In this document: one piece after another, positions 19,522 to 37,179 of the stretch
How positions within the stretch are numbered: position 1 is the first letter of the stretch
Layout: every line of letters begins with the position of its first letter
Assembly: GCA_036986175.1 (NCBI GenBank)
Contig: BTRB01000001.1
Span: 1 to 50,819, forward strand
Source: Gammaproteobacteria bacterium
GTDB taxonomy: Bacteria; Pseudomonadota; Gammaproteobacteria; Xanthomonadales; SZUA-36
Length of the DNA: 50,819 nucleotides
Direction: 5' to 3'
Notes under the pieces: generated by a model
The model's input: the letters and a program-made list of their open reading frames with translations, nothing else
Told to the model about the DNA's origin: nothing
The model's database searches: none
Position numbers and translations under genes: made by a program

Positions 19522-19626
19522 CACAAAATTGACGTGCATTCCTGTCAACCTGCGCTACAATTCCCCAACCTGCAGGTTCCAAGCCTGCGGCTCCAAAACT
19601 GTAGATAGGTCCTGGTGGAGGATTTT

Positions 19627-19899
19627 TTGAAATTATCGACTGAAGCAGTGGGTAGCAAGCTTGCGGAGATCCTGGCTCAATACCTCAGGAAAAACTGGAT
19701 TGACACACCGGCGATCGAGCGGGAAATTACACCGGCGACCAATATGGTGTCTGATTTGCAACTGGATTCATTCCAGGTAATGGAGTTCATGCTGGAGGTG
19801 GAAGATCATTACGATATCGCTATTGACCTCGAAAGCTTGTCCAATGTCCAGACCATTCTAGACCTTGCCGGCGTGGTCATCGCTGTGCATAACGAATGA
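19627..19899 (+). CDS. Acyl carrier protein (phosphopantetheine attachment site)
   Basis: 90-aa ORF from TTG 19627, preceded by GGAGG (19617-19621); the ORF-track start is GTG 19615. The PP-binding motif is DLQLDSFQVMEFMLEVE, with Ser in LDS. The stop at 19897-19899 lies 4 nt before the next ATG. Confidence 0.8.
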   Translation: MKLSTEAVGSKLAEILAQYLRKNWIDTPAIEREITPATNMVSDLQLDSFQVMEFMLEVEDHYDIAIDLESLSNVQTILDLAGVVIAVHNE

Positions 19900-19903
19900 C
19901 GAT

Positions 19904-21073
19904 ATGTCACTTTTTGAGAAATTTGCCGCTGCGAAGCAGCTTAGAGCAGGCCTTGCCAGTGCAGGCGTGGACCCGACCGGCGTCGTGTTTGATACCCTCA
20001 ACTCGGCAACTGAAGGTGTCGTCAAAGGGCGCAGGACAATACTCGCAGGCACCAACAATTACCTTGGCCTGACTTTTAACCAGGAATGTATTGCTGCCGG
20101 CGTGGCTGCGCTTGAATCACAGGGTACCGGCACGACTGGTTCGCGTATGGCCAATGGCAGTTACGCAGCCCACGGTGCGCTCGAAGCAGAACTGGCTGAT
20201 TTTTTCCAGTGTCCCCATGCCATGGTCTTTTCAACGGGTTATACCGCCAATCTGGGCGTACTCACTGCACTACTGGGCAGGGATGATGCAGTCCTGCTGG
20301 ATTCTGATGCCCACGCGAGTCTTTACGATGGCTGCTACATGAGTGGGGCTGGTATTTTCCGCTTCAAGCACAATGATCTGCAAAGCCTGGAACGTCGTCT
20401 CGTACGGCTCAAGGACCGTGCCAGCGGTTGCCTGATCGTTGTTGAAGGTATGTACAGCGTGCTGGGAGATTGTGCTCCTTTGGCAGAATTTGTTGCACTC
20501 AAGGAACGTTTTGGCGCCAGCCTGCTGGTCGATGAGGCACACTCCCTCGGTGTCTACGGTGAGCGTGGTCGTGGAGTCGCCGAGGCGCAGGGCGTACTGG
20601 ATAAGGTTGATTTCATTGTTGGAACGTTCAGCAAAAGTCTGGGTGCAATGGGTGGATTCTGTGCCAGCAGGCACAATGTGTTGGGATTGTTCCGCTATGT
20701 TTCCCGACCATTCATGTTTACCGCGTCCCCCAGCCCGGCAGTGGTGGCTACCACCCGTGAGGCCCTGAGGCAGTTACGCGCGCGCCCTGAGTTAAAAGAA
20801 ACCTTGTGGGCAAATGCAAGACAGCTTTATAGCGGTTTACAGGACCTTGGCTTTGAGCTCGGGCCGGAAGTCAGCCCGGTTGTGGCAGTGCGGTGTAAGG
20901 ACAGGGAAACAGCACTTGCAAACTGGAACCAACTGTTGGAAGCCGGTGTTTACGTCAACATGATGCTGCCCCCGGCAACACCTGACGGTGGCAGCTTCCT
21001 GCGCAGCAGTGTCAGTGCAGCACACACCCCAGAGCAAATCAAAACCATCATCAGCGCATTTAAAGACCTGTAG
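19904..21073 (+). CDS. spt: Serine palmitoyltransferase-like alpha-oxoamine synthase (PLP-dependent)
   Basis: 389 aa from ATG 19904. The motifs NNYLGLTFNQECIAAGVAALESQGTGTTGSRMANGS and the PLP-lysine context GTFSKSLGAMGGF resemble the Sphingomonas SPT motifs as I recall them (GSRMLNGT, GTFSKSVGTVGGF) more than BioF or Kbl. It is linked to FAAL, SDR and ACP. Confidence 0.75.
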   Translation: MSLFEKFAAAKQLRAGLASAGVDPTGVVFDTLNSATEGVVKGRRTILAGTNNYLGLTFNQECIAAGVAALESQGTGTTGSRMANGSYAAHGALEAELADFFQCPHAMVFSTGYTANLGVLTALLGRDDAVLLDSDAHASLYDGCYMSGAGIFRFKHNDLQSLERRLVRLKDRASGCLIVVEGMYSVLGDCAPLAEFVALKERFGASLLVDEAHSLGVYGERGRGVAEAQGVLDKVDFIVGTFSKSLGAMGGFCASRHNVLGLFRYVSRPFMFTASPSPAVVATTREALRQLRARPELKETLWANARQLYSGLQDLGFELGPEVSPVVAVRCKDRETALANWNQLLEAGVYVNMMLPPATPDGGSFLRSSVSAAHTPEQIKTIISAFKDL

Positions 21074-21586: not shown

Positions 21587-22864
21587 CTACATTTTCCGTA
21601 CCAACCCCAACATCAATAGCAGGGTCAGCAATGTGCCCACACTTGCTGCTACACCCGGTCCCGGCAAACCCATAACCGGTGTCAGCACGTAAAACAGGCC
21701 GAGGTAAACCACAACACTTAGCATATAAATGCGCAGGATCTGTGCAACCTTGCCCATGGCGTACGCAGCGGCGCGTAATGGTGAACCCGCGAGCTCGAAG
21801 GTCGCCGCCAACAGCATAAGGGTCAGGAGAGATGCGGCCTCGGTATATTCAGGTCCGATGATTTCAAGAATCGGTGCCGCAGCGGGGATTGACAGCAATA
21901 CGAGCAAGAGTCCTGCAGCTCCCGCTGTCTTGACAGCACGGAAACCGAGTTCATGAAACCCTGCTGCTTTGTTGTGCAAAATACGGGTCAGATCAGGGAA
22001 CAGCACTTCACGCAACATCATGGCCGGTTTGCTTAAGATACTTGAGAAATCGCGCGCCAGCCGGAACATGCCTGCGGCAGCCGGTCCCAGCAGATTGCCT
22101 GCGAGCAGAACGGCAAGATGTTTCGGCAGCAGGTCAATATTGGTCTGCCAGTACACCACGGCAATGAAATGACGGAACTCCCCGCTGGTTTTACCAATCT
22201 CCTTCCAACTGCCTCCTTTCCAGATACTACTGTTGAGATGTCTGTAGAATTCAAGGTGGCCCCGTATGAACAACCATGTATTTTCCAGTACGAACGCGGC
22301 TGCCCAAATGGCGATGAAAATACGTATGTCGGCATCCATGGTCCAGGCAATGGCTACACCGGTGATGCGGATCGCCGGACCTACGGTGTAGAAGACACTG
22401 AGCGCATCAAAGCGGTCATACAGCCGCAAAATTCCATTGGGCGTGTTGCTGACAGTGGTCAGCATCACCAGGCTGTACAGGCTCGCCAGCGATATCATCT
22501 CTGCGTCCCAGTACAGGAAACTACCCGCGAAAGACGCTGCTGAAATGCCCAAAAGCGTGGCTGCCGCGGCGGATGTGAGGTCAATCGCTGTAGTGGTGCG
22601 GAACAGTTGTTTCAGGCCTTCATCTTCACCATTTTCATGCTGTGGAACACCGAACCGTACAATCGCCTCGTAGGTTCTGAAATTCAGGATGCCCCTTACT
22701 GCCAGTACATAGGTGTGTAACAGGATGACCAGTCCAAATTCGGTTGCGGACAAGGCATTTGCCATCAGCGCAGTTGCCGCCAGGTTGAAAATTGCCGCAA
22801 TTCCGCGTCCGCGCAAAACCACACCGAAATTTCTCAACACGCGTCCGGAAACAGCTTTATCCAT
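21587..22864 (-). CDS. MOP/Wzx-type polysaccharide or lipid flippase family membrane protein
   Basis: A polytopic hydrophobic ORF with a Wzx-like N-terminus (VLRNFGVVLRGRGIAAIFNLAATALMANALSATEFG). I place the start at ATG 22864, which overlaps the upstream stop as TGATG. The ORF track extends to 22909. Confidence 0.6.
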   Translation of the reverse strand: MDKAVSGRVLRNFGVVLRGRGIAAIFNLAATALMANALSATEFGLVILLHTYVLAVRGILNFRTYEAIVRFGVPQHENGEDEGLKQLFRTTTAIDLTSAAAATLLGISAASFAGSFLYWDAEMISLASLYSLVMLTTVSNTPNGILRLYDRFDALSVFYTVGPAIRITGVAIAWTMDADIRIFIAIWAAAFVLENTWLFIRGHLEFYRHLNSSIWKGGSWKEIGKTSGEFRHFIAVVYWQTNIDLLPKHLAVLLAGNLLGPAAAGMFRLARDFSSILSKPAMMLREVLFPDLTRILHNKAAGFHELGFRAVKTAGAAGLLLVLLSIPAAAPILEIIGPEYTEAASLLTLMLLAATFELAGSPLRAAAYAMGKVAQILRIYMLSVVVYLGLFYVLTPVMGLPGPGVAASVGTLLTLLLMLGLVRKM

Positions 22865-23835
22865 CAGCGGAAAGCCCCCTGCCGGTGGAGCTTCCACAAC
22901 AATGGCCAAGCGAAGATCAAAGGGTGTTTAAGCTGCCGGGCACTTGGCTCGATATAAATACCGGTATGCCGTTCAACTTTCCATAGCAGGTACTGTAGTG
23001 GTCCATTGAAGGTGAACGCAGCTTTGAAAAGCCGTAGCATGGATAACAACTTGCCCTGCACACGGCGTAGCCACCAGCTAACTGAGGAGAATTTCCTGGC
23101 GACGGTACTGCTTTGGTTGCAATACACATCGTGCTGCGTGGTGGTTGACAGGTTTGCGCCGCTCCCGGCCAGCGACCGGGCAATCCCGTCATACCAGGCA
23201 GGATTAAAGTCGTATAGTGATTCAGCACGATTGCTGCTTTCCGTACGCAGCTCACAACGGTAGGTCTGTGAAAGGCCACTGGTCCATAATTCCCGGCTAC
23301 TGAACCGGTCGGGCAGGGAGGGTATCACGTGTTTCACAAAAGTAGCTGAGGCTGTTCCAAATGCATTGACCAAGGCCATTTTGGTTGCCTCGTCACGGGC
23401 AAACAGTACCTCGCAGGGCTGTGCAAAACGTGCCCAGAAATAGGAGTGAAAATCATGCGCCATGGCGTGGCAAAACCGGTCCAGCGTCAGCAGTGCATAT
23501 TTTGCCCGCATATCACTACTTTCTGTACCGGGTCCTGTTACCTTGTGGTGGATGTGGTACACATTGGGTGGAAGCAAGCGGCACATCCATCCTTGCCAGG
23601 GAGAATCCAGCGTACGGTAATCCTCCACCAGCACATAGAAATCCAGCATGGTGTCGCGCTTGCCGCGCAGCCAGGAGCCGTAGACCAGTATGGCCAGCAA
23701 AGCATCACCGTGTTGCTGTTTTATTTTGCTGAGAAGAGGTTCGAGACTGGCATAATCGTCCAGGTTTGCCTGGCACCCGTGGTCCACGCCGCTACCCAGT
23801 TCCACGGGTTTTTGTGGCTTATCATTTGGGTGCAT
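22864..23835 (-). CDS. Tam41/Mmp37-like nucleotidyltransferase (candidate lipid-phosphate cytidylyltransferase)
   Basis: The NTase signature is ILVYGSWLRGKRDTMLDFYVLV (GS ... DxD). Downstream blocks resemble my memory of the Tam41/Mmp37 profile: NVYHI, AKYALLTLDRF, YFWARFAQPCEVLF, SRELWTSGLSQTYRCELR. The start is uncertain: ATG 23835 overlaps the upstream gene by 14 nt, and other in-frame ATGs occur up to 23904. Confidence 0.5.
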   Translation of the reverse strand: MHPNDKPQKPVELGSGVDHGCQANLDDYASLEPLLSKIKQQHGDALLAILVYGSWLRGKRDTMLDFYVLVEDYRTLDSPWQGWMCRLLPPNVYHIHHKVTGPGTESSDMRAKYALLTLDRFCHAMAHDFHSYFWARFAQPCEVLFARDEATKMALVNAFGTASATFVKHVIPSLPDRFSSRELWTSGLSQTYRCELRTESSNRAESLYDFNPAWYDGIARSLAGSGANLSTTTQHDVYCNQSSTVARKFSSVSWWLRRVQGKLLSMLRLFKAAFTFNGPLQYLLWKVERHTGIYIEPSARQLKHPLIFAWPLLWKLHRQGAFR

Positions 23836-25051
23836 AAGCCCCCCGGGTGGCGCCGAAAATGGCATAAGCCCTGGCGTTCGGACCGGTTGCGACATCATCT
23901 TCACTCAGCCACGAGGTCAACGGCCCCCGCGTTAATCTGACCACAAGCGCAAACAACAGACGGAGCACAAGAATCACTGTGGTAAAAACAGTCCAGAACG
24001 TGACGGCAACAAAGCCCCAGTCAGGTCTGGCAATAACGATGCTCAGGGTCAGCAGGATCAGATTGGGATTGCGCCTCGCGGTGATCAGCCTGAACCATGC
24101 ATCGGAAGGACGCCAGGTGAAAATACTACAGTTTCCAAGCAGTGGAAAAATCCCTTCAACAACCCTTCCGACGATGTAAGCAACAATGATAAGCCAGTAC
24201 ATCTGACCCTGGTCAAAACCTATCACTGGTTGAAAATCTTGCAGTGACATACCCCAGTAAATGTACCAGAACGGTGGGTGAAACAGGTCAATGGCATGGT
24301 CGAACAGATGGCCAAACTTGCTGGATTTAATGGTTACACGGGCCAGTTTTCCATCAACGGTGTCGAGAAACGTCATCAACCAACCAGCCAGCAAGCCCCA
24401 GCCGTACTGTCCTTTCCAGAAGAAGTAAGCAGCAGCGATAACCAGCAATAGTCCCGTGCTGGTGACCATATTTGGCGTTATACCGGTATTTGCACACACA
24501 TGTACCATGCGTTTGGCCGGGCGGGGCCAGACAAATTTGGTGACCAGGTCGGTGATTCCACGGTAAGCATTGCCGTACAACTTATTTTCAAGTTCGGTTT
24601 TTCGTTGCGCAGAAATGGTTTCCAGCAAGGGTGTTGTCGACCTGCGCAGGCTTTCATCAAAGGCCGCCATGTCGCCGGGATGAATCCTCTGCAGGCCATG
24701 GGGCATCTCCCGGCTTCGTTCACGGAAATACGCCAGCATCGCGGGCAGGCGATGGCTATCGATAAAAGCTGCTGCAGCAGAATTATCACCCGGATGTGAC
24801 AACACGGCATCCGGGTGGGCTAAAACACCACTGAGGGTGCGGTTCTCGAACAGAAAATTTCCATTGATCAACAATATTCGGCTGTCTTGGGGAATGTTGT
24901 CTTTGTCTATATCATCCAGCCATCGGATGTCGCTCAAATCACCGCTGGATCCCATGCTGATCTCCAGCAACTGACGTTGCAGGCGGCGGGTAGAATCCAG
25001 TCCCCAAAGACGGGTGGAGGAGAGTTCAGAAACAGCTGCGTAGACGGTCAT
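23822..25051 (-). CDS. CDP-alcohol phosphatidyltransferase-family membrane enzyme with a ~190-aa cytoplasmic N-terminal extension
   Basis: It has a perfect family motif DxxDGxxARx8GxxxDxxxD: FLDTVDGKLARVTIKSSKFGHLFDHAIDLF. Several TM segments follow. The N-terminal domain (VYAAVSELSSTRLWGL...) looks like a degenerate NTP-transferase fold lacking the GxGxR loop. Confidence 0.85.
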   Translation of the reverse strand: MTVYAAVSELSSTRLWGLDSTRRLQRQLLEISMGSSGDLSDIRWLDDIDKDNIPQDSRILLINGNFLFENRTLSGVLAHPDAVLSHPGDNSAAAAFIDSHRLPAMLAYFRERSREMPHGLQRIHPGDMAAFDESLRRSTTPLLETISAQRKTELENKLYGNAYRGITDLVTKFVWPRPAKRMVHVCANTGITPNMVTSTGLLLVIAAAYFFWKGQYGWGLLAGWLMTFLDTVDGKLARVTIKSSKFGHLFDHAIDLFHPPFWYIYWGMSLQDFQPVIGFDQGQMYWLIIVAYIVGRVVEGIFPLLGNCSIFTWRPSDAWFRLITARRNPNLILLTLSIVIARPDWGFVAVTFWTVFTTVILVLRLLFALVVRLTRGPLTSWLSEDDVATGPNARAYAIFGATRGAYAPK

Positions 25052-25149: not shown

Positions 25150-26022
25150 ATGCGTCTGATTCACCTGACCGATCCACATCTCAGCAACCTTGACGGGCTA
25201 AAGCTCTCAGCGTTATGGGGCAAGCGCTGGTCCGGTTATGTCTCGTGGCGCAAGAATCGGCAAAAGAAATACCTGCCGGGTGTGCTGGAAAAACTGTGTG
25301 CCGCTGTGAAAGCTGAAAATGCGGATCAGATCCTGTTGACCGGGGACCTGGTCCAAATCGGCCTGGAAAGCGAGATTGGGCAGGCAGCGGAGTGGCTTGC
25401 GGATCTCGGCTCTGCAGACCGGGTTATGCTGGTGCCGGGTAACCATGATGTATATGCCCGGGGAAGCGCTGCAGTGGTTTGTGATTCCTGGGCTGAATAT
25501 CTGTTTCATGGCGGGCAGCCCGGCCACTTCCCGGTGCTGCGAAAACTGGGAAAGCTTAGTCTGATCGGGCTGTCTACCGCCTGTGCCAGCCCGCTGTTCA
25601 TGGCCACTGGAAAACTCGATACGGGTCAGCTTAAAGAACTGGCCCGGTTGCTGGAGACCGCCGCCGCTGAGCAACAACTGACCTGTTTACTGATCCATCA
25701 CCCACCGTTGCCGCGAATGACCAAGTGGCGCAAGGCCCTTGCCAATGCACAGGCTTTGCAGGATGTCCTCGAACGCTTTGTGCCGCCGTTGATTTTTCAC
25801 GGCCACCTGCACCATAACCGTGAGCAGCAATGGGGGAGTTCACGCATTTTTTGTACCGCTGCAGCATCCAGTGTCAGTGATGCTTCATACCGTGTGATCG
25901 ATATTGAAGACGCTGGTGAATGTTGGTCCTTACACATGGCACTGAAGTCAATTGCTGTTGAAAGCGCGGGTGGGGTGGAGTTTCCGGCGGTTGATGAGCA
26001 GAATTGGTTGGTACCCAAATAA
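25150..26022 (+). CDS. Calcineurin-like metallophosphoesterase (CpdA/GpdQ-like)
   Basis: All the canonical blocks are present: LIHLTDPHL, LLTGDLVQIG, LVPGNHD, LIHHPP, FHGHLHHN. Confidence 0.8.
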   Translation: MRLIHLTDPHLSNLDGLKLSALWGKRWSGYVSWRKNRQKKYLPGVLEKLCAAVKAENADQILLTGDLVQIGLESEIGQAAEWLADLGSADRVMLVPGNHDVYARGSAAVVCDSWAEYLFHGGQPGHFPVLRKLGKLSLIGLSTACASPLFMATGKLDTGQLKELARLLETAAAEQQLTCLLIHHPPLPRMTKWRKALANAQALQDVLERFVPPLIFHGHLHHNREQQWGSSRIFCTAAASSVSDASYRVIDIEDAGECWSLHMALKSIAVESAGGVEFPAVDEQNWLVPK

Positions 26023-26040: not shown

Positions 26041-27114
26041 TCACAAGCTCCGGTGGCGAATCGCTGCTATCGCCAGCGCGAGCAGGATAAATGGTGGTGT
26101 AAGGATGACCAGTGAAGGGTTCATACCCAATATTCCGGCCAGTTGGCCACTCAGCTGCTGCACCAGGTAAAAACCGATTCCTATCAAACCCCCAAGCATA
26201 ACCCGCTGGCTTGCGGAAACCGACCGGACTGAATTGAGCACGAAAGGCAGCGCCAACAAAGCCATTGCCAACAGGCTGGGCAACAGGCTGATCTGCTGCC
26301 AGAGAACAATCTCATATTCATGGGTATCAAGTTGATTGCGTCTGAGGTTCGCAATGGTTCTGACCAGGTCATTGGGTGCCAACGCCTCAAGCGGCAACAC
26401 CAGGACAGATGCTTGTTCGGCGGACAGCAGGCCTTTCCATAACATGCTTTCCTGCGTCGTCTCCTGTACGGTCGTTTTCTGCAGTTCGCTAAGCACCACG
26501 CCGTTTAACAGCCAGTTATTATCGCCGGCATAATCTGCACTGGATGCCTGTGTTAATTGTGATAAACGGCCTTTGGAATCGGCGGTATAGATTTCGATAT
26601 CAGCCAACGTGCGGTCAAACCTCACTTCATTGACACGGATGAAAAAAGAGCCGTTGCGGGTCCAGAATGCACCTGTACTGCCGGGGCCTTTTTCCGTGCC
26701 CTGCAGGGACTTGCCACGCAGCTGTGCAGCTTCTCTTTCAAACCTGGGCACGACAGAAAACTGCAGGATTGTGATAGAAATACCGAGAAACACCGCCAGC
26801 ACTGTTACGGTTTGCGCAATACGCCGCTTGGACAGGCCGCTGGTGCGAATAGCAATCAGCTCGCGACTATTGGCCATGGCACCCAAACCCAATAACCCGC
26901 CCAGCAGTGCGGTGACCGGCAGCAGTTCAACAATGCGTTTGGGTGTGGTCAAAAAAACGACCATAAAGGCGTCCGGCAAGTTGAAGTTGCCGCTGCCGAC
27001 TTGCTCCAGTTCTTCAGCAAGTGCCATGAAGCTGAACAAGGCGAGTAATAGCAACAAAACCGGTAGGATGCCGGCCAGGAACTGCTGCATGATGTAGCGG
27101 TCAATCTTCAGCAT
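26041..27114 (-). CDS. lptG: LPS export ABC transporter permease LptG
   Basis: 357 aa from ATG 27114 (MLKIDRYIMQQFLAGILP), of the YjgP/YjgQ family. It overlaps the lptF stop by 14 nt. The ORF-track extension to 27291 is unlikely to be translated. Confidence 0.85.
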   Translation of the reverse strand: MLKIDRYIMQQFLAGILPVLLLLLALFSFMALAEELEQVGSGNFNLPDAFMVVFLTTPKRIVELLPVTALLGGLLGLGAMANSRELIAIRTSGLSKRRIAQTVTVLAVFLGISITILQFSVVPRFEREAAQLRGKSLQGTEKGPGSTGAFWTRNGSFFIRVNEVRFDRTLADIEIYTADSKGRLSQLTQASSADYAGDNNWLLNGVVLSELQKTTVQETTQESMLWKGLLSAEQASVLVLPLEALAPNDLVRTIANLRRNQLDTHEYEIVLWQQISLLPSLLAMALLALPFVLNSVRSVSASQRVMLGGLIGIGFYLVQQLSGQLAGILGMNPSLVILTPPFILLALAIAAIRHRSL

Positions 27115-28174
27115 GATCCTTCCTGCTCTTCCTGCGGATGACCGGAAAGTACAGCCCGGCCACGAGCAGGCCAAGCAATCCGGACACCCACCAGATAGAG
27201 TCGGCGCTGCCCTGTTCCACCCAGCTGCGGCTGACATCCAGCAAGTTGAAGTAAACGGCATATATCCCAAGCGCCAACAACATCTTGGCATAACGCCCCT
27301 GCCGCGGGCGACTGCGGCTCAGCGGAATGGCCGCCAACGCCAGTAACAGGGCAGACAGGGGCGTGGATATACGCCATTGAAATTCTGCCCGCTCTTCTGC
27401 GGCGGGAGATCGCCTTAATGCGCTGGTTGGCGCCGATTTGACCTTGTAGCCCGGTGCTTGTGGGGTTTGTACGGGTATCCACAAAATAAAAGAGCCGAAT
27501 TGTGCCGAAAAGTCAGTGCCATCCCGAACCTTCTTGAACACCTGTGCATCAATGAGTTGCAGGCTGTGAAACTCCGGTTTGGCAAAATAGTTGAAAACAC
27601 CCTTCGAGGCTGTTATTACCTGCAGGTCGTTACCCTTGCGCGTACGGATAAAGATACCGTCCAGATCACTGCCGTTTTCAGCAATGTTTTCAATGAAAAC
27701 CGTACGCTCGCTCTCGCTGAATGTGTAAAACCGCGCTTCCCGAATGCGGCCAGTTTCCGCAGAGACCTCGGCGGCGGCCTTGACCTTGTACGATTGCGCA
27801 TATGCCCACGGCCGCACCCAGCCCGATAACAATGCAACCACGACGGCGACTACAAGCGACAGACGCATAAGCGGGCGCAGCAGGCGGGCCTCGGAGATAC
27901 CGCCTGCACGCATGGCGTAGATTTCTGAATCGGTGTATAAGCGTCCCAGGCCGGTCATGACGGCCAGGAACAGGCTGAGTGGCAGCAATACGTCGAGTGA
28001 TATCAGGGATTTGAGAACAGTCAGTTGTGCGACCTCACCGACTTGTAAAAGGCCCGCATCGGCATCTACAAGAAACCGGCTGAGGCTGTAGGTGATGAAA
28101 ATAACCAGCAGCGCTGTGCAAATCACCAGCAATGGTTGCACAACCTCCCTGATCAGGTAACGGTCAATAATCAT
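27101..28174 (-). CDS. lptF: LPS export ABC transporter permease LptF
   Basis: 357-aa ORF starting MIIDRYLIREVVQPLLVICTALLVIF, of the YjgP/YjgQ family. It sits directly upstream of lptG as in E. coli. Confidence 0.85.
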   Translation of the reverse strand: MIIDRYLIREVVQPLLVICTALLVIFITYSLSRFLVDADAGLLQVGEVAQLTVLKSLISLDVLLPLSLFLAVMTGLGRLYTDSEIYAMRAGGISEARLLRPLMRLSLVVAVVVALLSGWVRPWAYAQSYKVKAAAEVSAETGRIREARFYTFSESERTVFIENIAENGSDLDGIFIRTRKGNDLQVITASKGVFNYFAKPEFHSLQLIDAQVFKKVRDGTDFSAQFGSFILWIPVQTPQAPGYKVKSAPTSALRRSPAAEERAEFQWRISTPLSALLLALAAIPLSRSRPRQGRYAKMLLALGIYAVYFNLLDVSRSWVEQGSADSIWWVSGLLGLLVAGLYFPVIRRKSRKDHAED

Positions 28175-28265
28175 ATTTGTGCAGGTTTCGGCTTTTCATT
28201 TCACACTGTGGTTGCCAGTAGTTGTTATGATCGGGCAGCTTGGTACCTTTCAGCAAGAGTTTTGT

Positions 28266-28760
28266 ATGCTAAAAACACTCCTTCGTTGTCAAATTGTACT
28301 ACTTGCCGTGATGGCCCCTCCCGCCGGTGCATCATCGCCGGCAAACCTCGTCATCGAAACGGTCAGTATCAGCGCAGATGAAGCTTACGAGGATATTCAG
28401 CCCGGTATCCTGCATTTTAACGGTAATTTCACTATGCATAGTCGCGACTGGCAACTGGAATCCGTGCACGCAACAGTTTATGGCCAGCCTGACAGACCGG
28501 ACGAAGTATATCTTAAAGGTTCGCCCGCGCGTTTTCTGATCAACCGCAATCAGGGTGATGGGCAAAGCACGGTGGAAGCTGCGGCTCCGGCGGTGGAATA
28601 TCAGCGTTCCACAAATATGCTGAAATTATCCGGTGGCGCTGTGCTCAAGCTGGACCGTGAAGAAATCAGGAGTGAGGTAATCGAATATAATATCAGCACT
28701 GACCGCTACCGGGCCGCCGGCGCTGATGGGGTGATAATTGAAGTCCCGCCCAGAAACTGA
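28266..28760 (+). CDS. Secreted OstA/LptA-fold protein (second LptA-like paralogue)
   Basis: 164 aa from ATG 28266 with a signal peptide MLKTLLRCQIVLLAVMAPPAGA. The mature part aligns by eye with E. coli LptA block by block: ISADEA...LHFNGNFTM, VYLKGSPARFL, AAPAVEYQRSTNMLKLSGGAVL, IRSEVIEYNI. It is divergent from lptF. The canonical lptA is at 41347-42006. Confidence 0.6.
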   Translation: MLKTLLRCQIVLLAVMAPPAGASSPANLVIETVSISADEAYEDIQPGILHFNGNFTMHSRDWQLESVHATVYGQPDRPDEVYLKGSPARFLINRNQGDGQSTVEAAAPAVEYQRSTNMLKLSGGAVLKLDREEIRSEVIEYNISTDRYRAAGADGVIIEVPPRN

Positions 28761-28784: not shown

Positions 28785-29513
28785 CTAGGTCGGCCACTGA
28801 CTAACGACATCTGGCGCAGCAGCGAAATCGTTCGCATCATCGACTTCGCACCAGCTTAACCCGTGGATAGGACAAATGCCGACAATGCCCTCACTGGCAA
28901 GCTGGTCAATAGCGGACAAGTACCAGAGTTTTAGAGCATTTACCTGGTCCATCATTTCCTCGAGTTTAAGTGCAAAAGCCTCTGCACCCGCCTGGTTGAA
29001 TACCATCAGGCCAATACTTTCACCGTTCACCAGACTGATATCCAGTTGTTTGCTTACTTTTATCAGGCGATCTCCATCCGCGATGATCTTCATATCGTCC
29101 AGGTCAAAATGAGGCTTGGTGTCGGTAGCGAGGGTGATCGGATAGCCTTTGTCGCAGGCCAACAGGCGCTGTAAAACGGCTGCTTCGAACAGCGTATCAC
29201 CATTCATCAGCACAAATGGCCCGTCCATTTCAGAACGCGCTTCCCAACAGGTACCAAGGTTATCTGTGTGGGCGTACATCGGATTATGCAGTGTCCACAC
29301 CTTGATGCCGGTAACTTTGTCCACGATCGCATCGACCATTTCATAGGCAAACCCGGTAACAACGACCACTTCATCAATATCGCACTGCGCAATCTGGCTC
29401 AATTGCCATTCCAGTATGGAAATGCCGTGAAGTGGCAGGCAGCATTTGGCCAGGTTTGATGTTAGAGGCATCAGTCGACGACCCTGGCCTGCACTCAAAA
29501 TGATAGCTTTCAA
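28785..29513 (-). CDS. LicC/IPCT-type phospho-alcohol (or sugar-phosphate) nucleotidyltransferase
   Basis: 242-aa ORF with a TTG start preceded by AAGGA. The N-terminus is KAIILSAGQGRRLMPLT (GxGxRL loop). Overall length and the C-terminal WCEVDDANDF resemble small cytidylyltransferases of the NTP_transf_3 type. Confidence 0.65.
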   Translation of the reverse strand: MKAIILSAGQGRRLMPLTSNLAKCCLPLHGISILEWQLSQIAQCDIDEVVVVTGFAYEMVDAIVDKVTGIKVWTLHNPMYAHTDNLGTCWEARSEMDGPFVLMNGDTLFEAAVLQRLLACDKGYPITLATDTKPHFDLDDMKIIADGDRLIKVSKQLDISLVNGESIGLMVFNQAGAEAFALKLEEMMDQVNALKLWYLSAIDQLASEGIVGICPIHGLSWCEVDDANDFAAAPDVVSQWPT

Positions 29514-29566: not shown

Positions 29567-29585
29567 ATTCTGCAAAATGCAGAAT
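29567..29585. promoter_or_regulatory. Perfect 19-bp palindrome, candidate operator
   Basis: ATTCTGCA-AAA-TGCAGAAT lies in the 134-bp divergent region between the NTP-transferase (start 29513, minus strand) and the GMC oxidoreductase (start 29648, plus strand). Confidence 0.4.
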
Positions 29586-29647
29586 TGATATACTCACGAA
29601 TGCGTCTGTGCTTTTGTTCAAGGCCCTGGAAACGCAAGGACCCGAGT

Positions 29648-31252
29648 ATGTTGATCGATCTGGAAAAATTCGCTCAGGATATGATGCTTGATGCAGAGGT
29701 TTGCATTGTTGGCGCTGGCGCTGCGGGTGTAGCTCTTGCCCGGGACCTGATGCATGCCGGTCGTGATATATGCCTGCTGGAAGGCGGAGGCATGGACTAT
29801 GAAGACGCCACCCAATCGTTGTTTGACGGCAAAAATATCGGTATGGAATATTACGATCTGGACCATGCCCGCTTGCGTTTTTTCGGCGGCACAACCAATA
29901 TCTGGGGCGGCCGCAACATTCCACTGGATCCAATCGATTTTGAGAAACGTGATTGGGTGCCACACAGTGGCTGGCCAATCACATTCGATGATCTGCAGGC
30001 TTATTACCGTATTGCACACAATTCGCTTGAACTGGGTGAGTTTGACTACGAGGCCGGCAATTGGCAGAAGCTGGGACTGCAACCCATTGGATTTGACCCG
30101 CAAGAGATCACAACGCGGTTTTGGCGCTTTGATGATCTTGCCGAGCGCTTCAACAGTCGCCGCAGTGATGACCTGATCAAATCTGAGAATGTGCGTATTG
30201 TCCTGCATGCCAATACGGTCGGTTTGCAGGCGGCTGAGAATGCTGCAAGCGTCACCCGCCTGGATGCGACTACCCTGCAGGGCAGAAAGTTGCAGGTTAC
30301 CGCGCGTCATTTTGTGCTCGCCTGCGGTGCGATTGAAAATGCCCGTTTGCTGCTGGCTTCCAATACGGTTGAGGCTTCTGGAATCGGCAATCAGCACGAT
30401 CAGCTTGGGCGTTATTTCATGGAGCACCCCCATGGCAGAGTTGCCCATATCGAAACAGAAGATCCGGCAGCCTTCTGGGCATTGTATCGCAAGCGTTATC
30501 CGGCAACTGATGTGCCGGTTGCGCCGGCACTGGTATTGCCGCCGTCTTTACAGAAACGCCTCGGCATTCTTAACAGTGCAGCCACATTCAAACTTCAGAA
30601 AGACCCGGCCAGGGGTGCCACAGTAAGCAAACGGGTGTACCTGAATCTGAAACACAGTTTGTCACCATCTCGATCCGGAAGGCGCTTGTGGCATGCCTGG
30701 CGGGGTACGCAAGATTGGTTGCAGCGCCACGTATCAATGCCCCTGTTGCGTTTTGGTACCAGGGTAAACCGTATGGGCCTGTACGTGATTGCCCGCGCTG
30801 AGCAGGCGCCTAACCCGCACAGCCGGGTATGCCTTTCTAGTGAAATGGATGCACTTGGCTACCCCAGGGCAGACCTGGACTGGCAGCTTTGTGACCTGGA
30901 TAAGGAGACCATGTTGCAGTTTGGCAAAACGCTGGAGCGGGAGTTTGACCGGCTTGGCTTGGGCAAGGTAACAACTTACCAGTGGCTGGAGGACGGTACA
31001 CCTGAGTGGCCGGTTGATGCCAGTGTGGGTAATCACCCCATTGGCGGCTATCACCACATGGGTACAACCCGCATGAGTAACTCCCCGAAGACCGGCGTTG
31101 TGGATGCCAACTGCACAGTCCATGGCTACCAGAACCTGCATATCGCCGGTAGCTCGGTGTTTACAACCGGTGGCTGGGCTAATCCTACTTTAACGCTGCT
31201 GGCGTTGACGCACAGGCTCGGGGATCATCTGAACAGTTTATTGACCCGATAA
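29648..31252 (+). CDS. GMC-family FAD-dependent oxidoreductase
   Basis: 534 aa from ATG 29648. The FAD fingerprint is VCIVGAGAAGVALA. The C-terminal GMC blocks are HPIGGYHHMGTTRMS, VVDANCTVHGYQNLHIAGSSVFTTGGWANPTLT. Confidence 0.8.
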   Translation: MLIDLEKFAQDMMLDAEVCIVGAGAAGVALARDLMHAGRDICLLEGGGMDYEDATQSLFDGKNIGMEYYDLDHARLRFFGGTTNIWGGRNIPLDPIDFEKRDWVPHSGWPITFDDLQAYYRIAHNSLELGEFDYEAGNWQKLGLQPIGFDPQEITTRFWRFDDLAERFNSRRSDDLIKSENVRIVLHANTVGLQAAENAASVTRLDATTLQGRKLQVTARHFVLACGAIENARLLLASNTVEASGIGNQHDQLGRYFMEHPHGRVAHIETEDPAAFWALYRKRYPATDVPVAPALVLPPSLQKRLGILNSAATFKLQKDPARGATVSKRVYLNLKHSLSPSRSGRRLWHAWRGTQDWLQRHVSMPLLRFGTRVNRMGLYVIARAEQAPNPHSRVCLSSEMDALGYPRADLDWQLCDLDKETMLQFGKTLEREFDRLGLGKVTTYQWLEDGTPEWPVDASVGNHPIGGYHHMGTTRMSNSPKTGVVDANCTVHGYQNLHIAGSSVFTTGGWANPTLTLLALTHRLGDHLNSLLTR

Positions 31253-32044
31253 AATCTTCTCGGCCAATTTCTGGTCTGCGATGGAGTCGACATCTACTGC
31301 AGCCCTGGCATGGTCAAGTCGCACGTAGCCGATACTGCAACCGGCAGCTGTTGACAGTGCCTGTAGCGCATCATCCAGGGTCAGTCGTCTGAACACATAG
31401 CGCAGTAAGGCGACGAAGCCAAAGCGGCGTGCGATCCGCCAGGGATGTTTGCGGTCAGCTTCTGCCTGGCGCCAGAAAGACAGTGCCTTCATACCGTTCG
31501 GATTCAGTGCGGCGAACAGGTTACTGCCACAAAACTGTCCGTTCGAGAATTTTAAAACAGTGCGCTTCGATTCCGGCCAGGCAGCCTTGACCAGGGAATA
31601 TGGCACCAGGCCTATGACAAAATCGTGCTTTGATTTGAGTGCCTGAGCCTGTGCCTGTGTGCAGAAATCATCCACGATTTCGCCTGTCACCAGTGCATGG
31701 TCGCCGGCAGTCAGCAGTGCGGGGTAGTGGTTGAGCTTCTCAAGCGCCAACAATGCGCTGGAGGCAGGTCCCGTCGCCGGTGCCAGCCATTGAAAATCCG
31801 GGTCTTGCAGAAGTTGTTGTAAAGCCTGGCTTTGGTTGAGCACATTGGCTGATGGCCCACAGATCACCCCGCCTTGTGCATGTCTGCTGTTATTGATGGC
31901 CTCCATCACACGCCGTAGGGAAGGTTTGCCTGCGACCGGCACCAGCACGCTGGCCGGAATCGCGAAAGCGTGGCTCAGTGCGCTACCGCCGGGGCGCTCC
32001 CCTGCGAGAATGATCGAGCGGAACGGTGCGTTTTGTTTGGTCAT
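31238..32044 (-). CDS. MobA-like NTP-transferase family protein
   Basis: 268-aa ORF with N-terminus RSIILAGERPGGSALSHAFAIPASVLVPVAGKPSL, typical of the NTP_transf_3 / MobA-like fold. It is the last gene of the GT, GNAT-like, NTP-transferase operon. Its end overlaps the GMC gene end by 15 nt (convergent). Confidence 0.55.
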   Translation of the reverse strand: MTKQNAPFRSIILAGERPGGSALSHAFAIPASVLVPVAGKPSLRRVMEAINNSRHAQGGVICGPSANVLNQSQALQQLLQDPDFQWLAPATGPASSALLALEKLNHYPALLTAGDHALVTGEIVDDFCTQAQAQALKSKHDFVIGLVPYSLVKAAWPESKRTVLKFSNGQFCGSNLFAALNPNGMKALSFWRQAEADRKHPWRIARRFGFVALLRYVFRRLTLDDALQALSTAAGCSIGYVRLDHARAAVDVDSIADQKLAEKILSGQ

Positions 32045-32056: not shown

Positions 32057-33202
32057 CTAAAGGTCTTTCTCATACATCCGATAGCGTTTTGAAATTTCGC
32101 CACCGATGCTTTCAATAATATTCCTGGTGGCCTGGTTATGATCCAGTACCCAGGACATTTCAGCGCGCTCGAGTCCTTTGGCCGTACCGGCATCCATTGC
32201 ATTCTTGATGACCATGTAAGCAAGTGCCGGCCCAAAACGCGTGTTCTGGTACTTTTGCCTGACACCCATCAGGGCTACCCTGGCTGATTTTGGAAATTTT
32301 ATTTTCAGACGCCATAGCAGCCTGGCCCAACCGAATGGTAACAGGCGTCCGTTGAGGTCTGCGATGGCTTCGTTAATATTGGGGATCAACACAACAAAGG
32401 CGACAGCTTCACCATCGAGCTCAGCGATCTGAATAAACTCATCGGGTAACAGCATCATCAGCTCCTTGCCAATCGCTGCAAACTCTGCGCGCGTAAACGG
32501 TACAAAATTCCAGTTGTTTTCCCACGCGTCGTTGAAAATACTGCGCATGACTTCCAGTTCGGCTTTTTTTTGTTTGCGCTGCAAAGGTCTGACGTTGACG
32601 CGGTCGGCACTTCTCTTTAGCAATGCTTGCATTACCCTGGGAATAGTAAGGGTCGTAGAGTCCAGTTCATAGGCGAGCAGGTCCTGTGACGGTTGATACC
32701 CACACTGCTCAATAGCTTTACCGTAATAAGGTAGTGAATGCGGTGTCATGACATAAGGTGGGGAATCAAACCCTTCGATCAGAATGCCGATCTCCTGGTT
32801 AATGCTAAGGTTGAACGGGCCAACAACCTGACGCATACCCCGGTCCCGCAGCCAGCTTTCAGCGGCATTAAACAGGGCTTTGAAAACCTCATTGTCATCG
32901 GTTGCTTCAAGCATGCCGAAAAAACCGGTTTTGCTGTCGTACTGTTGTTGATGCAGTTCATCGACCTGCGCAGAAATACGCCCGACAGGCTTGCCATCCC
33001 GCCAGGCAACCCAGGCCTGCCATTCGGCGTGTTCGAAATAGGGATGCTTGCTTGAGAAAGCTTCTTTGCGCTCGGCGATCAGTGGCGGGACCCAGTTAGG
33101 ATCATTTTGGTAAAGTTCCCAGGGAACCCGGATAAAGGTATCCATTGCTTTCTTCCCGGAAACCTCGGTGATTTTCACAGCCGTATCAAGATGGTTATTC
33201 AC
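32057..33202 (-). CDS. Large GNAT-like N-acyltransferase (candidate bacterial ceramide synthase, speculative)
   Basis: 381-aa soluble ORF. The N-terminal block FIRVPWELYQNDPNWVPPLIAERKEAF...WVAWRDGKPVGRISAQVD matches a widespread ~380-aa acyl-CoA N-acyltransferase-like family as I recall it. It lies 26 nt after the GT and 12 nt before the NTP-transferase gene. Confidence 0.4.
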   Translation of the reverse strand: MNNHLDTAVKITEVSGKKAMDTFIRVPWELYQNDPNWVPPLIAERKEAFSSKHPYFEHAEWQAWVAWRDGKPVGRISAQVDELHQQQYDSKTGFFGMLEATDDNEVFKALFNAAESWLRDRGMRQVVGPFNLSINQEIGILIEGFDSPPYVMTPHSLPYYGKAIEQCGYQPSQDLLAYELDSTTLTIPRVMQALLKRSADRVNVRPLQRKQKKAELEVMRSIFNDAWENNWNFVPFTRAEFAAIGKELMMLLPDEFIQIAELDGEAVAFVVLIPNINEAIADLNGRLLPFGWARLLWRLKIKFPKSARVALMGVRQKYQNTRFGPALAYMVIKNAMDAGTAKGLERAEMSWVLDHNQATRNIIESIGGEISKRYRMYEKDL

Positions 33203-35685: not shown

Positions 35686-35704
35686 AAGTGTTAACAGGCC
35701 CTAA
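35686..35704 (+). repeat. 19-nt exact repeat AAGTGTTAACAGGCCCTAA, copy 2
   Basis: It is identical to 19503-19521. It fills almost the whole 21-nt spacer between the mgtE stop and the ATG of the 816-aa GT (35679). The mgtE stop (CTA at 35701-35703, TAG on the minus strand) lies inside the repeat. Confidence 0.9.
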
Positions 35705-37077: not shown

Positions 37078-37133
37078 CCTTCTGATGGGATTGGAGGGTG
37101 GCCTTTAAAAAGGCCCGGGTAAACTGGTGCTCT

Positions 37134-37139
37134 ATTATA
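37134..37139 (-). promoter_or_regulatory. Candidate sigma70 -10 box (TATAAT) for mgtE
   Basis: On the minus strand there is a perfect TATAAT about 55 nt upstream of the mgtE start, with TTAGGA 17 nt further upstream as a poor -35. A small hairpin GGCCTT-TTTA-AAGGCC (minus-strand reading; plus-strand 37101-37116) lies in the putative leader. Confidence 0.3.
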
Positions 37140-37179
37140 AAGAGTCCGGGGAGAATTCCTAAGGAACTCTGTTCCTGCT

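What the first reader, a model, noticed from the sequence alone, without database searches (positions are those of the whole stretch)
26041..28760. lptFG embedded in the lipid locus with a divergent second LptA-like periplasmic protein
lptF and lptG overlap by 14 nt. They are flanked on both sides by lipid-biosynthesis genes instead of the pepA-type neighbourhood known from E. coli. A 164-aa secreted protein is divergent from lptF, with a 91-bp spacer. It aligns block by block with the OstA/LptA beta-jellyroll (FNGN..., GSPARF, YQRSTNMLKLSGGAVL, IEYNI). A canonical lptA with lptC and lptB is present at 40626-42544, so this is an extra paralogue. My inference is that it could form an alternative periplasmic bridge or adaptor giving the Lpt machine, or a variant of it, access to a non-LPS lipid.
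Basis: partly seen in the sequence, partly recalled or inferred. Interest (0 to 1): 0.7.

Follow-up and report, generated by a model that had tools for sequence, protein, structure and literature searches.

The report
Extra LptA-like protein in sphingolipid export locus
An uncultured marine gammaproteobacterium has a gene cluster for making bacterial sphingolipids that carries its own copies of the LPS-exporter membrane subunits (LptF/LptG) plus a previously unreported small periplasmic LptA-like protein, a direct candidate for the unknown step that moves sphingolipids across the periplasm.

Summary
lptF (27101-28174) and lptG (26041-27114) overlap by 14 nt. A 164-aa secreted OstA/LptA-fold protein (28266-28760) is divergent from lptF across a 91-bp spacer. 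A canonical lptC-lptA-lptB lies 12 kb away.

The surrounding 19 kb is a bacterial sphingolipid locus: serine palmitoyltransferase, ACP, fatty acyl-AMP ligase, CerR-type reductase, YghO-type GNAT and head-group enzymes.

LptF/G copies in sphingolipid loci are already described: "LptF2/G2" in Caulobacter, proposed in 2024 and tested in a 2026 preprint. By tree and HMM score, the window's pair falls with that locus-linked group, not with pepA-linked canonical LptF.

The LptA-like protein is the new part. The preprint says no LptA duplication was found in any sphingolipid locus. Here it sits next to lptF2 in 64 of 71 assessable metagenomic loci. It also does so in four distant lineages (LptF about 45% identical) whose outer flanks are unrelated. 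It is under purifying selection.

It is absent from the E. coli locus and from some sister loci.

Best reading: a dedicated periplasmic jellyroll adaptor for the sphingolipid exporter. The function is inferred, not shown. I could not test whether these genomes also hold a second, canonical lptFG.

The parts
28266..28760 (+). lptA2: 164-aa secreted LptA-like beta-jellyroll protein. Residues 1-22 look like a Sec signal peptide: K3 and R7, a 13-residue hydrophobic core, then A-G-A before S23.
   Evidence: Pfam PF03968 at 31.4 bits. NCBIfam LptA equivalog at 51.3 bits, below the 71.7 cut-off. AF2 pLDDT 83, with a helix at residues 2-15 followed by 10 strands. Foldseek best hit is LptA 2r1a, E=9e-9, TM 0.84. 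dN/dS is 0.13 against L004.
28175..28265 (.). 91-bp divergent spacer between lptF2 and lptA2; presumably a shared regulatory region.
   Evidence: Read from the sequence. The divergent arrangement, with a gap of about 25-190 bp, is kept in related loci. No convincing promoter or terminator consensus was found.
27101..28174 (-). lptF2: LptF-type permease of the sphingolipid locus.
   Evidence: Pfam LptF_LptG at 218 bits. TIGR04407 at 308 bits, inside the locus-linked range of 285-325 and below the pepA-linked range of 373-385. The tree places it with the locus-linked group.
26041..27114 (-). lptG2: LptG-type permease; overlaps lptF2 by 14 nt.
   Evidence: Pfam at 218 bits; TIGR04408 at 301 bits.
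25150..26022 (+). Calcineurin-like metallophosphoesterase, convergent with lptG2.
   Evidence: Pfam Metallophos. A homologue lies next to lptG2 in distant loci L024-L029.
23822..25051 (-). CDP-alcohol phosphatidyltransferase-family enzyme; likely adds a phospho head group.
   Evidence: Pfam PF01066. Sub-threshold NCBIfam hits to inositol-phosphate-type synthases.
22864..23904 (-). Conserved locus protein of unknown family (346 aa).
   Evidence: No Pfam hit. Conserved in related loci.
21587..22909 (-). MOP/Polysacc_synt-type putative flippase.
   Evidence: Weak Pfam hit to PF01943. 26% identical to the E. coli locus 'lipopolysaccharide biosynthesis protein'.
19865..21073 (+). spt, serine palmitoyltransferase. 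The true start is probably the ATG at about 19904.
   Evidence: NCBIfam NF047599 equivalog at 600 bits, above the 500 cut-off. 57% identical to the annotated E. coli spt.
19615..19899 (+). Acyl carrier protein.
   Evidence: Pfam PP-binding.
18563..19489 (+). CerR-type NAD-dependent epimerase/reductase.
   Evidence: Pfam Epimerase. 35% identical to the gene at the same position in the E. coli locus.
16753..18561 (+). Fatty acyl-AMP ligase.
   Evidence: NCBIfam NF006624 at 697 bits, above the 600 cut-off.
28785..29513 (-). Nucleotidyltransferase (head-group activation).
   Evidence: Pfam NTP_transferase and NTP_transf_3.
29585..31252 (+). GMC-family FAD oxidoreductase.
   Evidence: Pfam GMC_oxred_C.
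31238..32044 (-). Second nucleotidyltransferase.
   Evidence: Pfam NTP_transf_3.
32057..33202 (-). YghO-type GNAT; candidate bacterial ceramide synthase.
   Evidence: Pfam Acetyltransf_1. 49% identical to E. coli YghO, which sits in the E. coli spt locus.
33229..35679 (-). 816-aa glycosyltransferase at the end of the locus.
   Evidence: Pfam GT1 and GT4 domains.
40626..42544 (-). Canonical lptC-lptA-lptB. It holds the only Lpt ATPase gene in the window. It is not part of the locus but is the presumed shared partner.
   Evidence: Pfam LptC, LptD_N and ABC_tran. TIGR03002 at 101.9 bits. No ABC ATPase gene lies between 16.7 and 35.7 kb.

Best explanation
Positions 16.7-35.7 kb are a sphingolipid synthesis-and-export cassette.

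Synthesis (inferred from family assignments). Spt, ACP, the acyl-AMP ligase, the CerR-type reductase and the YghO-type GNAT would make ceramide on the cytoplasmic side. The CDP-alcohol transferase, two nucleotidyltransferases, the oxidoreductase, the phosphoesterase and the glycosyltransferase would build a polar head group, probably a phospho or glyco one. The MOP-type protein would flip the lipid across the inner membrane.

Extraction (inferred, resting on published Caulobacter work). lptF and lptG here are 'LptF2/G2'-type paralogues. They would extract this lipid from the inner membrane, powered by the single LptB encoded 12 kb away.

The new element. The 164-aa protein, called LptA2 here, is a soluble periplasmic beta-jellyroll. 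I propose that it docks by edge-strand pairing onto the periplasmic jellyroll of LptF2. There it would take the place that LptC and/or LptA hold in the LPS machine, receive the sphingolipid, and pass it on to the canonical LptA-LptD bridge or directly to an outer-membrane acceptor.

Shown here: gene identities, fold, signal peptide, purifying selection, conserved linkage to lptF2G2 and spt, and cassette-like mobility.

Inferred only: the substrate, the docking partner, the use of LptB, and the direction of lipid hand-over.
For: Locus identity. Spt passes its NCBIfam equivalog cut-off, and the acyl-AMP ligase passes a subfamily-model cut-off. ACP, the reductase, the GNAT and the flippase-like gene match the E. 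coli yghO-spt locus gene for gene at 26-57% identity.

F2-type permeases.
- In a neighbour-joining tree of 150 LptF cluster representatives plus references, the window LptF groups with E. coli and Enterobacterales locus-linked LptF and with L023-L029. pepA-linked LptF falls outside (bootstrap 67%).
- All eight contexts looked up on that side of the tree are spt-type or partial lipid loci.
- Both contexts sampled on the other side are valS-holC-pepA<>lptFG.
- TIGR04407 scores separate the two groups: 285-325 against 373-385 bits. The window scores 308.
- No ATPase gene lies in the locus. This matches the report that LptB is shared with F2G2 (bioRxiv 10.64898/2026.04.12.717747).

LptA2.
- It has an OstA HMM hit, a confident jellyroll model and LptA as best structural match.
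- It has a cleavable-looking signal peptide and no LptC HMM hit.
- dN/dS is 0.13.
- It is divergent from lptF2 in 64 of 71 assessable JGI metagenome loci and in 15 of 15 genome loci with enough sequence.
- Family members lie next to lptF2 in four lineages whose LptF is only 45-47% identical and whose outer flanks are unrelated. They score 47-112 bits on the family HMM, against 36 bits for the canonical LptA.
- The LptA2-bearing LptF subclade has 84% bootstrap support.
Against: No interaction, lipid or localisation was tested.

LptA2 is missing from 7 of 71 sister loci. In those, a flippase gene or a TonB-dependent-receptor gene abuts lptF2 instead. It is also missing from other lptF2G2 sphingolipid loci: E. 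coli, L028, L029 and L112. The F2G2 exporter can therefore evidently exist without it.

LptA2 is the least conserved gene of the locus, at 51-63% identity against 59-89% for its neighbours.

I could not show that these genomes also carry a canonical pepA-linked lptFG. The F2 clade has only moderate bootstrap support (67%). Pairwise LptF/G scores do not discriminate.

One LptA2-lptF2G2 locus (L026) has no spt within 10 kb.
Confidence: 0.6

Rival explanations
1. The lptFG pair in this locus is the organism's only LptFG. It exports LPS, perhaps both lipids. LptA2 would then be an accessory LptA paralogue of the ordinary LPS bridge, and the position among sphingolipid genes close to lptCAB would be historical accident.
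For: In the window's clade the locus lies 5 kb from lptB, in the same chromosomal neighbourhood as lptCAB-rpoN. Both permeases pass the NCBIfam LptF and LptG equivalog cut-offs. Pairwise scores to E. coli F2 and to canonical F are similar. No second lptFG could be looked for. The preprint reports that Sphingomonas wittichii has a sole lptFG inside its sphingolipid locus.
Against: The same lptA2-lptF2G2-lipid module occurs with entirely different outer flanks in lineages with 45-47% LptF identity. This fits a mobile accessory cassette better than a housekeeping gene pair. The tree and the TIGR04407 score gap place the window's LptF with locus-linked copies that are known second copies in E. coli and other Enterobacterales. 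pepA-linked canonical lptFG is found in other uncultured gammaproteobacteria.
Confidence: 0.17
2. LptA2 acts as the counterpart of Caulobacter LptC2. It would be the first jellyroll bound to LptF2 and would simply hand the lipid to the canonical LptA, rather than forming any separate bridge. On this reading it is an LptC substitute that has lost its membrane anchor.
For: The locus has no lptC-like gene. Foldseek also matches LptC at E=7e-5 and TM 0.76. From established knowledge, not tested here: E. coli LptC works without its transmembrane helix, and LptF suppressor mutations allow loss of LptC. Caulobacter has LptC2 and no LptA2.
Against: By sequence and structure it is closer to LptA than to LptC. 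The LptA equivalog HMM gives 51 bits and there is no PF06835 hit. TM is 0.84 against 0.76, and identity is 21-22% against 10%. This rival overlaps the best explanation and differs only in the downstream partner.
Confidence: 0.15
3. LptA2 does not transport lipid. It would be a regulator or cap that binds a jellyroll edge, for example to keep LptF2G2 from engaging the LPS bridge, or it would be a decaying duplicate.
For: It is the fastest-evolving gene in the locus. It has been lost repeatedly within the clade. It is absent from other F2G2 loci.
Against: dN/dS is 0.13. The full-length jellyroll model is confident. Linkage is conserved across LptF identities from 45% to 97%. There are 10 invariant and 11 nearly invariant positions across subclades that are 21-30% identical.
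Confidence: 0.07

Closest known systems
LptF2/LptG2/LptC2 sphingolipid transport proteins of Caulobacter crescentus (CCNA_01214, CCNA_01213, CCNA_01226). Proposed in PMC11324152 (2024); tested in bioRxiv 10.64898/2026.04.12.717747 (2026).
   Same: LptF and LptG paralogues are encoded inside the spt/ACP/CerR/ceramide-synthase locus. The locus has no ATPase gene of its own. A flippase-like gene is present. An extra Lpt-type periplasmic jellyroll gene is encoded in the locus.
   Different: The extra jellyroll here is a soluble, signal-peptide-bearing, LptA-type protein (PF03968). It is not a membrane-anchored LptC homologue. The preprint states that lptC2 seems restricted to Caulobacter and that no LptA or LptD/E duplication was found in any sphingolipid locus. 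No direct sequence comparison with CCNA_01226 was possible here. The host is an uncultured gammaproteobacterium.
Canonical LptA (E. coli YhbN, PDB 2r19/2r1a; P. aeruginosa LptH, PDB 4uu4).
   Same: Same beta-jellyroll fold over the whole mature protein (TM 0.79-0.84). It is periplasmic, of similar size, and has the N-terminal I-x-I-x-A-D-type edge strand.
   Different: Only 18-26% identical to LptA: about 26% to the window's own LptA over a local match, 18% over the full alignment, and 18-22% to E. coli LptA and LptH. It scores below the LptA equivalog cut-off, 51.3 against 71.7. It is not in the lptC-lptA-lptB operon. It lacks the C-terminal tail of the window's LptA. It has its own invariant signature, for example W62.
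E. coli yghO-spt locus with a second lptF-lptG (for example strain L26, NZ_CP146250.1; the UTI89 locus is cited in the preprint).
   Same: The core gene set is the same: YghO GNAT, acyl-AMP ligase, epimerase, ACP, spt, lptG, lptF and a flippase-like gene.
   Different: The E. coli locus has no OstA-family gene. A YtfJ-family periplasmic protein (PF09695) follows lptF instead. LptF and LptG are only 27-32% identical to the window's.

Membership tests
OstA / LptA-LptD_N beta-jellyroll family (Pfam PF03968) | Profile HMM match above the gathering score. | tested here: met
   31.4 bits against a cut-off of 20.4, E=2.5e-7. All 19 homologues match, with a best E-value of 4.5e-11.
OstA / LptA-LptD_N beta-jellyroll family (Pfam PF03968) | Twisted beta-jellyroll fold. 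| tested here: met
   The AF2 model has pLDDT 83.3 and 10 strands. Foldseek gives LptA 2r1a at E=9e-9 and TM 0.84, and LptH 4uu4 at TM 0.79.
OstA / LptA-LptD_N beta-jellyroll family (Pfam PF03968) | Binds lipid acyl chains in the groove. | not testable with these tools
   Needs crosslinking or binding assays.
LptA proper (NCBIfam TIGR03002 equivalog) | Score at or above the equivalog cut-off. | tested here: not met
   51.3 bits against a cut-off of 71.7. The window's canonical LptA scores 101.9.
LptA proper (NCBIfam TIGR03002 equivalog) | Encoded in the lptC-lptA-lptB operon. | tested here: not met
   It is divergent from lptF at 28266. The canonical operon is at 40626-42544.
LptC (Pfam PF06835) | LptC profile match. 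| tested here: not met
   No PF06835 hit at E<=1 for any of 19 members. The window's LptC scores 95 bits.
LptC (Pfam PF06835) | Uncleaved N-terminal transmembrane anchor. | tested here: not met
   The N-terminus has a short (about 13-residue) hydrophobic core, P-P, then A-G-A before S. The AF2 helix covers residues 2-15 only. No dedicated signal-peptide predictor was available.
LptF2/LptG2 sphingolipid-locus permeases (Uchendu et al. 2026; Olea-Ozuna et al. 2024) | LptF and LptG homologues encoded inside the spt/ceramide locus. | tested here: met
   The same holds in related loci.
LptF2/LptG2 sphingolipid-locus permeases (Uchendu et al. 2026; Olea-Ozuna et al. 2024) | A second pair, in addition to a canonical lptFG in the same genome. 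| not tested
   The window is the whole 50.8-kb contig. Coexistence was seen only for the E. coli species: strain L26 holds the locus pair and MG1655 holds the pepA-linked pair. Coexistence in a single strain was not checked.
LptF2/LptG2 sphingolipid-locus permeases (Uchendu et al. 2026; Olea-Ozuna et al. 2024) | Groups with other locus-linked copies rather than with pepA-linked LptF. | tested here: inconclusive
   The neighbour-joining tree places it there, but bootstrap support is only 67%. The TIGR04407 score gap is consistent: 308 bits, against 285-325 for locus-linked and 373-385 for canonical copies.
LptF2/LptG2 sphingolipid-locus permeases (Uchendu et al. 2026; Olea-Ozuna et al. 2024) | No dedicated ATPase; uses LptB. 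| tested here: inconclusive
   No ABC ATPase gene lies in the locus, and there is a single lptB in the window. The interaction itself is not testable here.
Bacterial sphingolipid biosynthesis locus | Serine palmitoyltransferase equivalog together with ACP, acyl-AMP ligase, CerR-type reductase and GNAT ceramide synthase. | tested here: met
   NF047599 at 600 bits against 500. NF006624 at 697 bits against 600. PP-binding hit for the ACP. 35% identity to the E. coli locus reductase and 49% to YghO. Enzyme activities were not tested.

The most novel reading that the evidence does not exclude
LptA2 is the first dedicated periplasmic carrier or bridge subunit for a bacterial sphingolipid. Together with LptB2F2G2 it would form a route insulated from the LPS bridge. 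That route might end at an outer-membrane protein other than LptD, such as the TonB-dependent-receptor-like barrel that abuts lptA2 or lptF2 in about half of the related genome loci.
Probability: 0.2. Interest if true: 0.8.

Novelty: new variant of a known kind. Interest (0 to 1): 0.6.

Why it matters
How Gram-negative bacteria move sphingolipids from the inner to the outer membrane is an open question. The 2026 Caulobacter preprint identifies the inner-membrane step (LptB2F2G2). It states that the periplasmic and outer-membrane steps are unknown and that no LptA or LptD/E duplicate had been found in any sphingolipid locus.

This family supplies such a duplicate. It is a conserved, selected, locus-encoded LptA-type jellyroll that lies divergent from lptF2.

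That turns an open question into specific experiments: which partner it docks to, and which lipid it binds. It also offers natural comparison sets, because sister loci occur both with and without the gene.

It would also show that the Lpt bridge architecture has been re-used modularly for a second class of outer-membrane lipid.

Tried and rejected
1. Pairwise BLAST of the window's LptF/G against E. coli canonical and locus-linked copies. All pairs are 27-32% identical, so this is not decisive for orthology.
2. PDB sequence scores (93-154 bits to canonical LptF/G of several orders) also do not discriminate.
3. Finding a second lptFG in the same genomes. The homologue search lists only the best 120 hits, all 73% identical or more. 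Cluster look-ups gave no contig-length match.
A scan with the distant subclade found nothing.
5. A homologue search with the L025 LptA2 returned only itself. The breadth of the distant subclades and the existence of cultured carriers therefore remain unknown.
6. L020, a Desulfobacterales contig end with a 42-residue match, has no lptF neighbour. I treated it as spurious.
7. The small no-Pfam ORFs next to lptF2 in L025, L027 and L028 are not OstA-like. They carry an HxHxH motif and look HIT-like.
8. The promoter and terminator scan of the spacer was uninformative.
9. I considered and rejected a lipoprotein reading. No member has a lipobox, and the residue before the Cys is P or L in those that have a Cys.
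10. I considered using the basic lipid-A-binding residues of LptG as a substrate discriminator. I dropped it because I could not verify that they are conserved among canonical LptG proteins.


Full report
**Observation**

- lptF occupies 27101-28174 on the minus strand.
- lptG occupies 26041-27114 when started at the MLKIDRY methionine, which gives a 14-nt overlap.
- A 164-aa ORF runs from the ATG at 28266 to 28760 on the plus strand, 91 bp from the lptF start.
- That ATG is the invariant first residue of 19 aligned homologues.

Both permeases hit Pfam LptF_LptG at 218 bits and pass the NCBIfam LptF and LptG equivalog cut-offs. The small protein hits Pfam PF03968 (LptA/LptD_N) at 31.4 bits, above the gathering score of 20.4. 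The window also holds a complete kdsD-kdsC-lptC-lptA-lptB-rpoN-ptsN-rapZ cluster at 37.2-44.1 kb. The small protein is therefore an additional paralogue. BLAST against the window's own LptA gives 26% identity over 94 residues.

**What the surroundings are**

The genes from 16.7 to 35.7 kb are, in order:
- a fatty acyl-AMP ligase (NF006624, 697 bits, above cut-off);
- an NAD-dependent epimerase/reductase;
- an acyl carrier protein;
- a serine palmitoyltransferase (NF047599 equivalog, 600 bits against a 500 cut-off);
- a MOP-type flippase-like protein;
- a conserved unknown protein;
- a CDP-alcohol phosphatidyltransferase-family enzyme;
- a metallophosphoesterase;
- lptG, lptF and the LptA-like gene;
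- two nucleotidyltransferases and a GMC oxidoreductase;
- a GNAT protein;
- a large glycosyltransferase.

The E. coli yghO-spt locus was retrieved with the window's spt DNA. It holds the same core: YghO GNAT, acyl-AMP ligase, epimerase, ACP, spt, lptG, lptF and a flippase-like gene. Protein identities to the window are 26-57%. The window region is therefore a bacterial sphingolipid synthesis locus with head-group genes. No ABC ATPase gene lies in it.

**What is already known**

PMC11324152 (2024) labelled CC_1168, CC_1156 and CC_1155 of Caulobacter as LptC2, LptF2 and LptG2. It suggested that, with a flippase, they export phosphosphingolipids.

The bioRxiv preprint 10.64898/2026.04.12.717747 (April 2026) reports the following:
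- lptF2, lptG2 and lptC2 can only be deleted when sphingolipid synthesis, or synthesis of the anionic head group, is abolished.
- LptF2 and LptG2 co-purify with each other and with the single LptB.
- lptF2G2 occur in many alpha- and gammaproteobacterial sphingolipid loci.
- lptC2 seems restricted to Caulobacter.
[quoted passage not shown]"

The lptFG half of the finding is therefore a described kind of system. By that statement, the LptA-like gene is not described.

**Is the window's lptFG of the locus-linked (F2) kind?**

Pairwise scores do not decide this. I therefore ran an exhaustive HMMER search with the window's LptF against 1.84 billion cluster representatives. It returned a graded series from 50% down to 31% identity.

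I looked up genomic contexts for twelve of these lineages.
- Eight fall on the window's side of a neighbour-joining tree: L023-L029 and L112. All eight lie in spt-type or partial lipid loci.
- Two fall on the other side: P0292 and P0286. Both lie in the classical valS-holC-pepA<>lptF-lptG arrangement, as in E. coli K-12.

The E. coli locus-linked LptF and an Enterobacterales cluster (Erwinia, Raoultella) also fall on the window's side. Bootstrap support for the locus-linked group excluding the canonical copies is 67%.

The NCBIfam LptF model separates the two sets cleanly. pepA-linked copies score 373-385 bits. Locus-linked copies score 285-325 bits. The window scores 308.

The lipid module also sits between unrelated flanking genes in different lineages: rapZ/mgtE, a transposase and TauD, ECH and SDR genes, uvrC, or rpsF/rpsR and RNase R. 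This is the behaviour of a transferable cassette, not of a housekeeping gene pair.

I rate the F2 assignment at about 0.8. I could not check directly whether the same genomes also hold a canonical pair.

**The LptA-like protein (LptA2)**

Sequence and structure:
- The N-terminus has two basic residues, a hydrophobic core of about 13 residues, P-P, and A-G-A before Ser23. This is a Sec signal peptide, not an LptC-type anchor. No homologue has a lipobox.
- The AlphaFold2 model built from 19 sequences has mean pLDDT 83 and is an all-beta jellyroll.
- Foldseek ranks E. coli LptA first (E=9e-9, TM 0.84, 21-22% identity), then P. aeruginosa LptH. LptC follows (E=7e-5, 10% identity), then the LptD N-terminal domain.
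- PDB sequence search finds only LptA entries.
- No member matches the LptC Pfam model.
- On the NCBIfam LptA equivalog it scores 51 bits, below the 71.7 cut-off that the window's true LptA passes.

It is therefore an LptA-type member of the OstA family but not an LptA orthologue.

Selection:
- dN/dS against an 81%-identical relative is 0.13.
- It is nevertheless the least conserved gene of the locus, at 51-63% identity against 59-89% for its neighbours.

**Distribution**

- A database search found 221 homologues. All but one of the 120 listed carry PF03968, and almost all come from metagenomes.
- A scan of 185,579 species genomes found the gene in 16 uncultured gammaproteobacterial MAGs, labelled Xanthomonadales, Lysobacterales or Wenzhouxiangellaceae. 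In each it is divergent from lptF2 wherever the contig allows, and spt is present wherever the contig is long enough.
- An independent JGI metagenome scan was keyed on LptF2, not on LptA2. It returned 80 loci at 58-97% LptF identity. Of the 71 loci with enough upstream sequence, 64 have LptA2 divergent from lptF2.
- The seven loci without it are of two types. Five have flippase-lptF-lptG, as does the 3.5-Mb contig L023. Two have a TonB-dependent-receptor gene abutting lptF.
- Four lineages with only 45-47% LptF identity (L024-L027) also carry a PF03968 gene divergent from lptF2. These proteins score 47-112 bits on the LptA2 family HMM, whereas the window's canonical LptA scores 36.
- Across these distant members, 10 positions are invariant, including W62, G85-x-P87-A88 and S136-x-x-I139.
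- The LptA2-bearing LptF subclade has 84% bootstrap support.
- LptA2 is absent from the E. coli locus, which has a YtfJ-family protein there, and from L028, L029 and L112.

**Mechanism**

Shown here: a selected, secreted, LptA-fold protein whose gene is tightly and anciently linked to lptF2G2 inside sphingolipid cassettes that lack their own ATPase and their own LptC.

Inferred: LptB2F2G2 extracts the flipped sphingolipid. LptA2 docks by beta-strand augmentation on the LptF2 periplasmic jellyroll and receives the lipid. It then passes the lipid to the canonical LptA/LptD bridge or to another outer-membrane acceptor.

Established knowledge of the LPS system makes a machine without LptC plausible. 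E. coli LptC functions without its transmembrane helix, and LptF suppressor mutations allow loss of LptC. I did not test either point here.

The natural loss variants show that LptA2 is not indispensable to every F2G2 system. This fits an adaptor that improves or insulates hand-over better than it fits an obligatory core subunit.

**Rivals**

- The pair could be the only LptFG in the cell, serving both lipids. I rate this at about 0.17.
- LptA2 could be a pure LptC substitute feeding the canonical LptA. This overlaps the best explanation; I rate it at about 0.15.
- LptA2 could be a regulator or a decaying duplicate. I rate this at about 0.07.

**Novelty and verdict**

The system is a new variant of a known kind. 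The lptF2G2-in-sphingolipid-locus theme is published. A locus-encoded LptA-type periplasmic component is not, and the most recent paper explicitly reports not finding one.

Interest is moderate to high (0.6). The finding bears directly on a stated open question and is testable. However, all carriers found are uncultured, the function is inferred, and the gene is not universal among such loci.

Noticed in passing
L010:10454-12904 (-); L092:7-2103 (+); also L008, L011-L013, L015, L017, L019, L094: An approximately 700-816-aa TonB-dependent-receptor-like outer-membrane protein (Plug plus beta-barrel) is inserted next to lptA2 in 8 of the 17 related genome loci. In two metagenome loci it abuts lptF2 directly, with a 6-bp gap and on the same strand, where lptA2 is missing. 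It is absent from the window. It could be an outer-membrane partner or could be unrelated.
   Followed up: partly
L023:8731-13105; L043, L048, L052, L056, L058: A natural variant of the same locus (LptF 74-80% identical) has flippase-lptF-lptG-unknown as one co-directional block and no LptA2 within 10 kb. This could serve as a natural minus-LptA2 comparison.
   Followed up: partly
window 25150-26022; L024-L029 next to lptG2: A calcineurin-like metallophosphoesterase lies immediately beside lptG2, mostly convergent with it, in the window and in six distant lptF2G2 loci. It is missing from four close relatives (L001, L002, L007, L009). Its role is unknown; it may process the head group.
   Followed up: no
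window 35701-44052: In the window's clade the sphingolipid cassette is inserted directly beside mgtE-rapZ-ptsN-rpoN-lptB-lptA-lptC-kdsC-kdsD. The accessory and canonical Lpt genes are therefore 5-12 kb apart. In more distant lineages the cassette sits in unrelated neighbourhoods.
   Followed up: partly
L021:17250-17810 (-), E. coli strain L26: In the E. coli yghO-spt locus a YtfJ-family periplasmic protein (PF09695) directly follows lptF2. It occupies the slot adjacent to lptF2 that LptA2 holds here.
   Followed up: no
L025:8803-9231; L027:8996-9436; L028:9533-9976: A conserved 142-147-aa protein with an H-V-H-F-H-V motif (HIT-like, no Pfam hit on record) lies next to lptA2 or lptF2 in distant loci. 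It has no counterpart in the window.
   Followed up: no
L029:1239-3059 (-): An MsbA-like fused ABC exporter (ABC_membrane plus ABC_tran) lies beside spt in one lptF2G2 locus that lacks both LptA2 and the MOP-type flippase. It may be an alternative flippase.
   Followed up: no
window 6301-11028 (-): A 1575-aa protein combines two GT1-type and one GT2-type glycosyltransferase domains. It lies upstream of a PBP1A gene and outside the sphingolipid locus.
   Followed up: no
L026:9478-16553: A locus on a 4.3-Mb contig (the record name suggests it is circular) has lptA2-lptF2-lptG2, the phosphoesterase, the CDP-alcohol transferase and a flippase-like gene, but no spt, ACP or CerR within 10 kb. Either the synthesis genes lie elsewhere in that genome or the module serves another lipid.
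   Followed up: no
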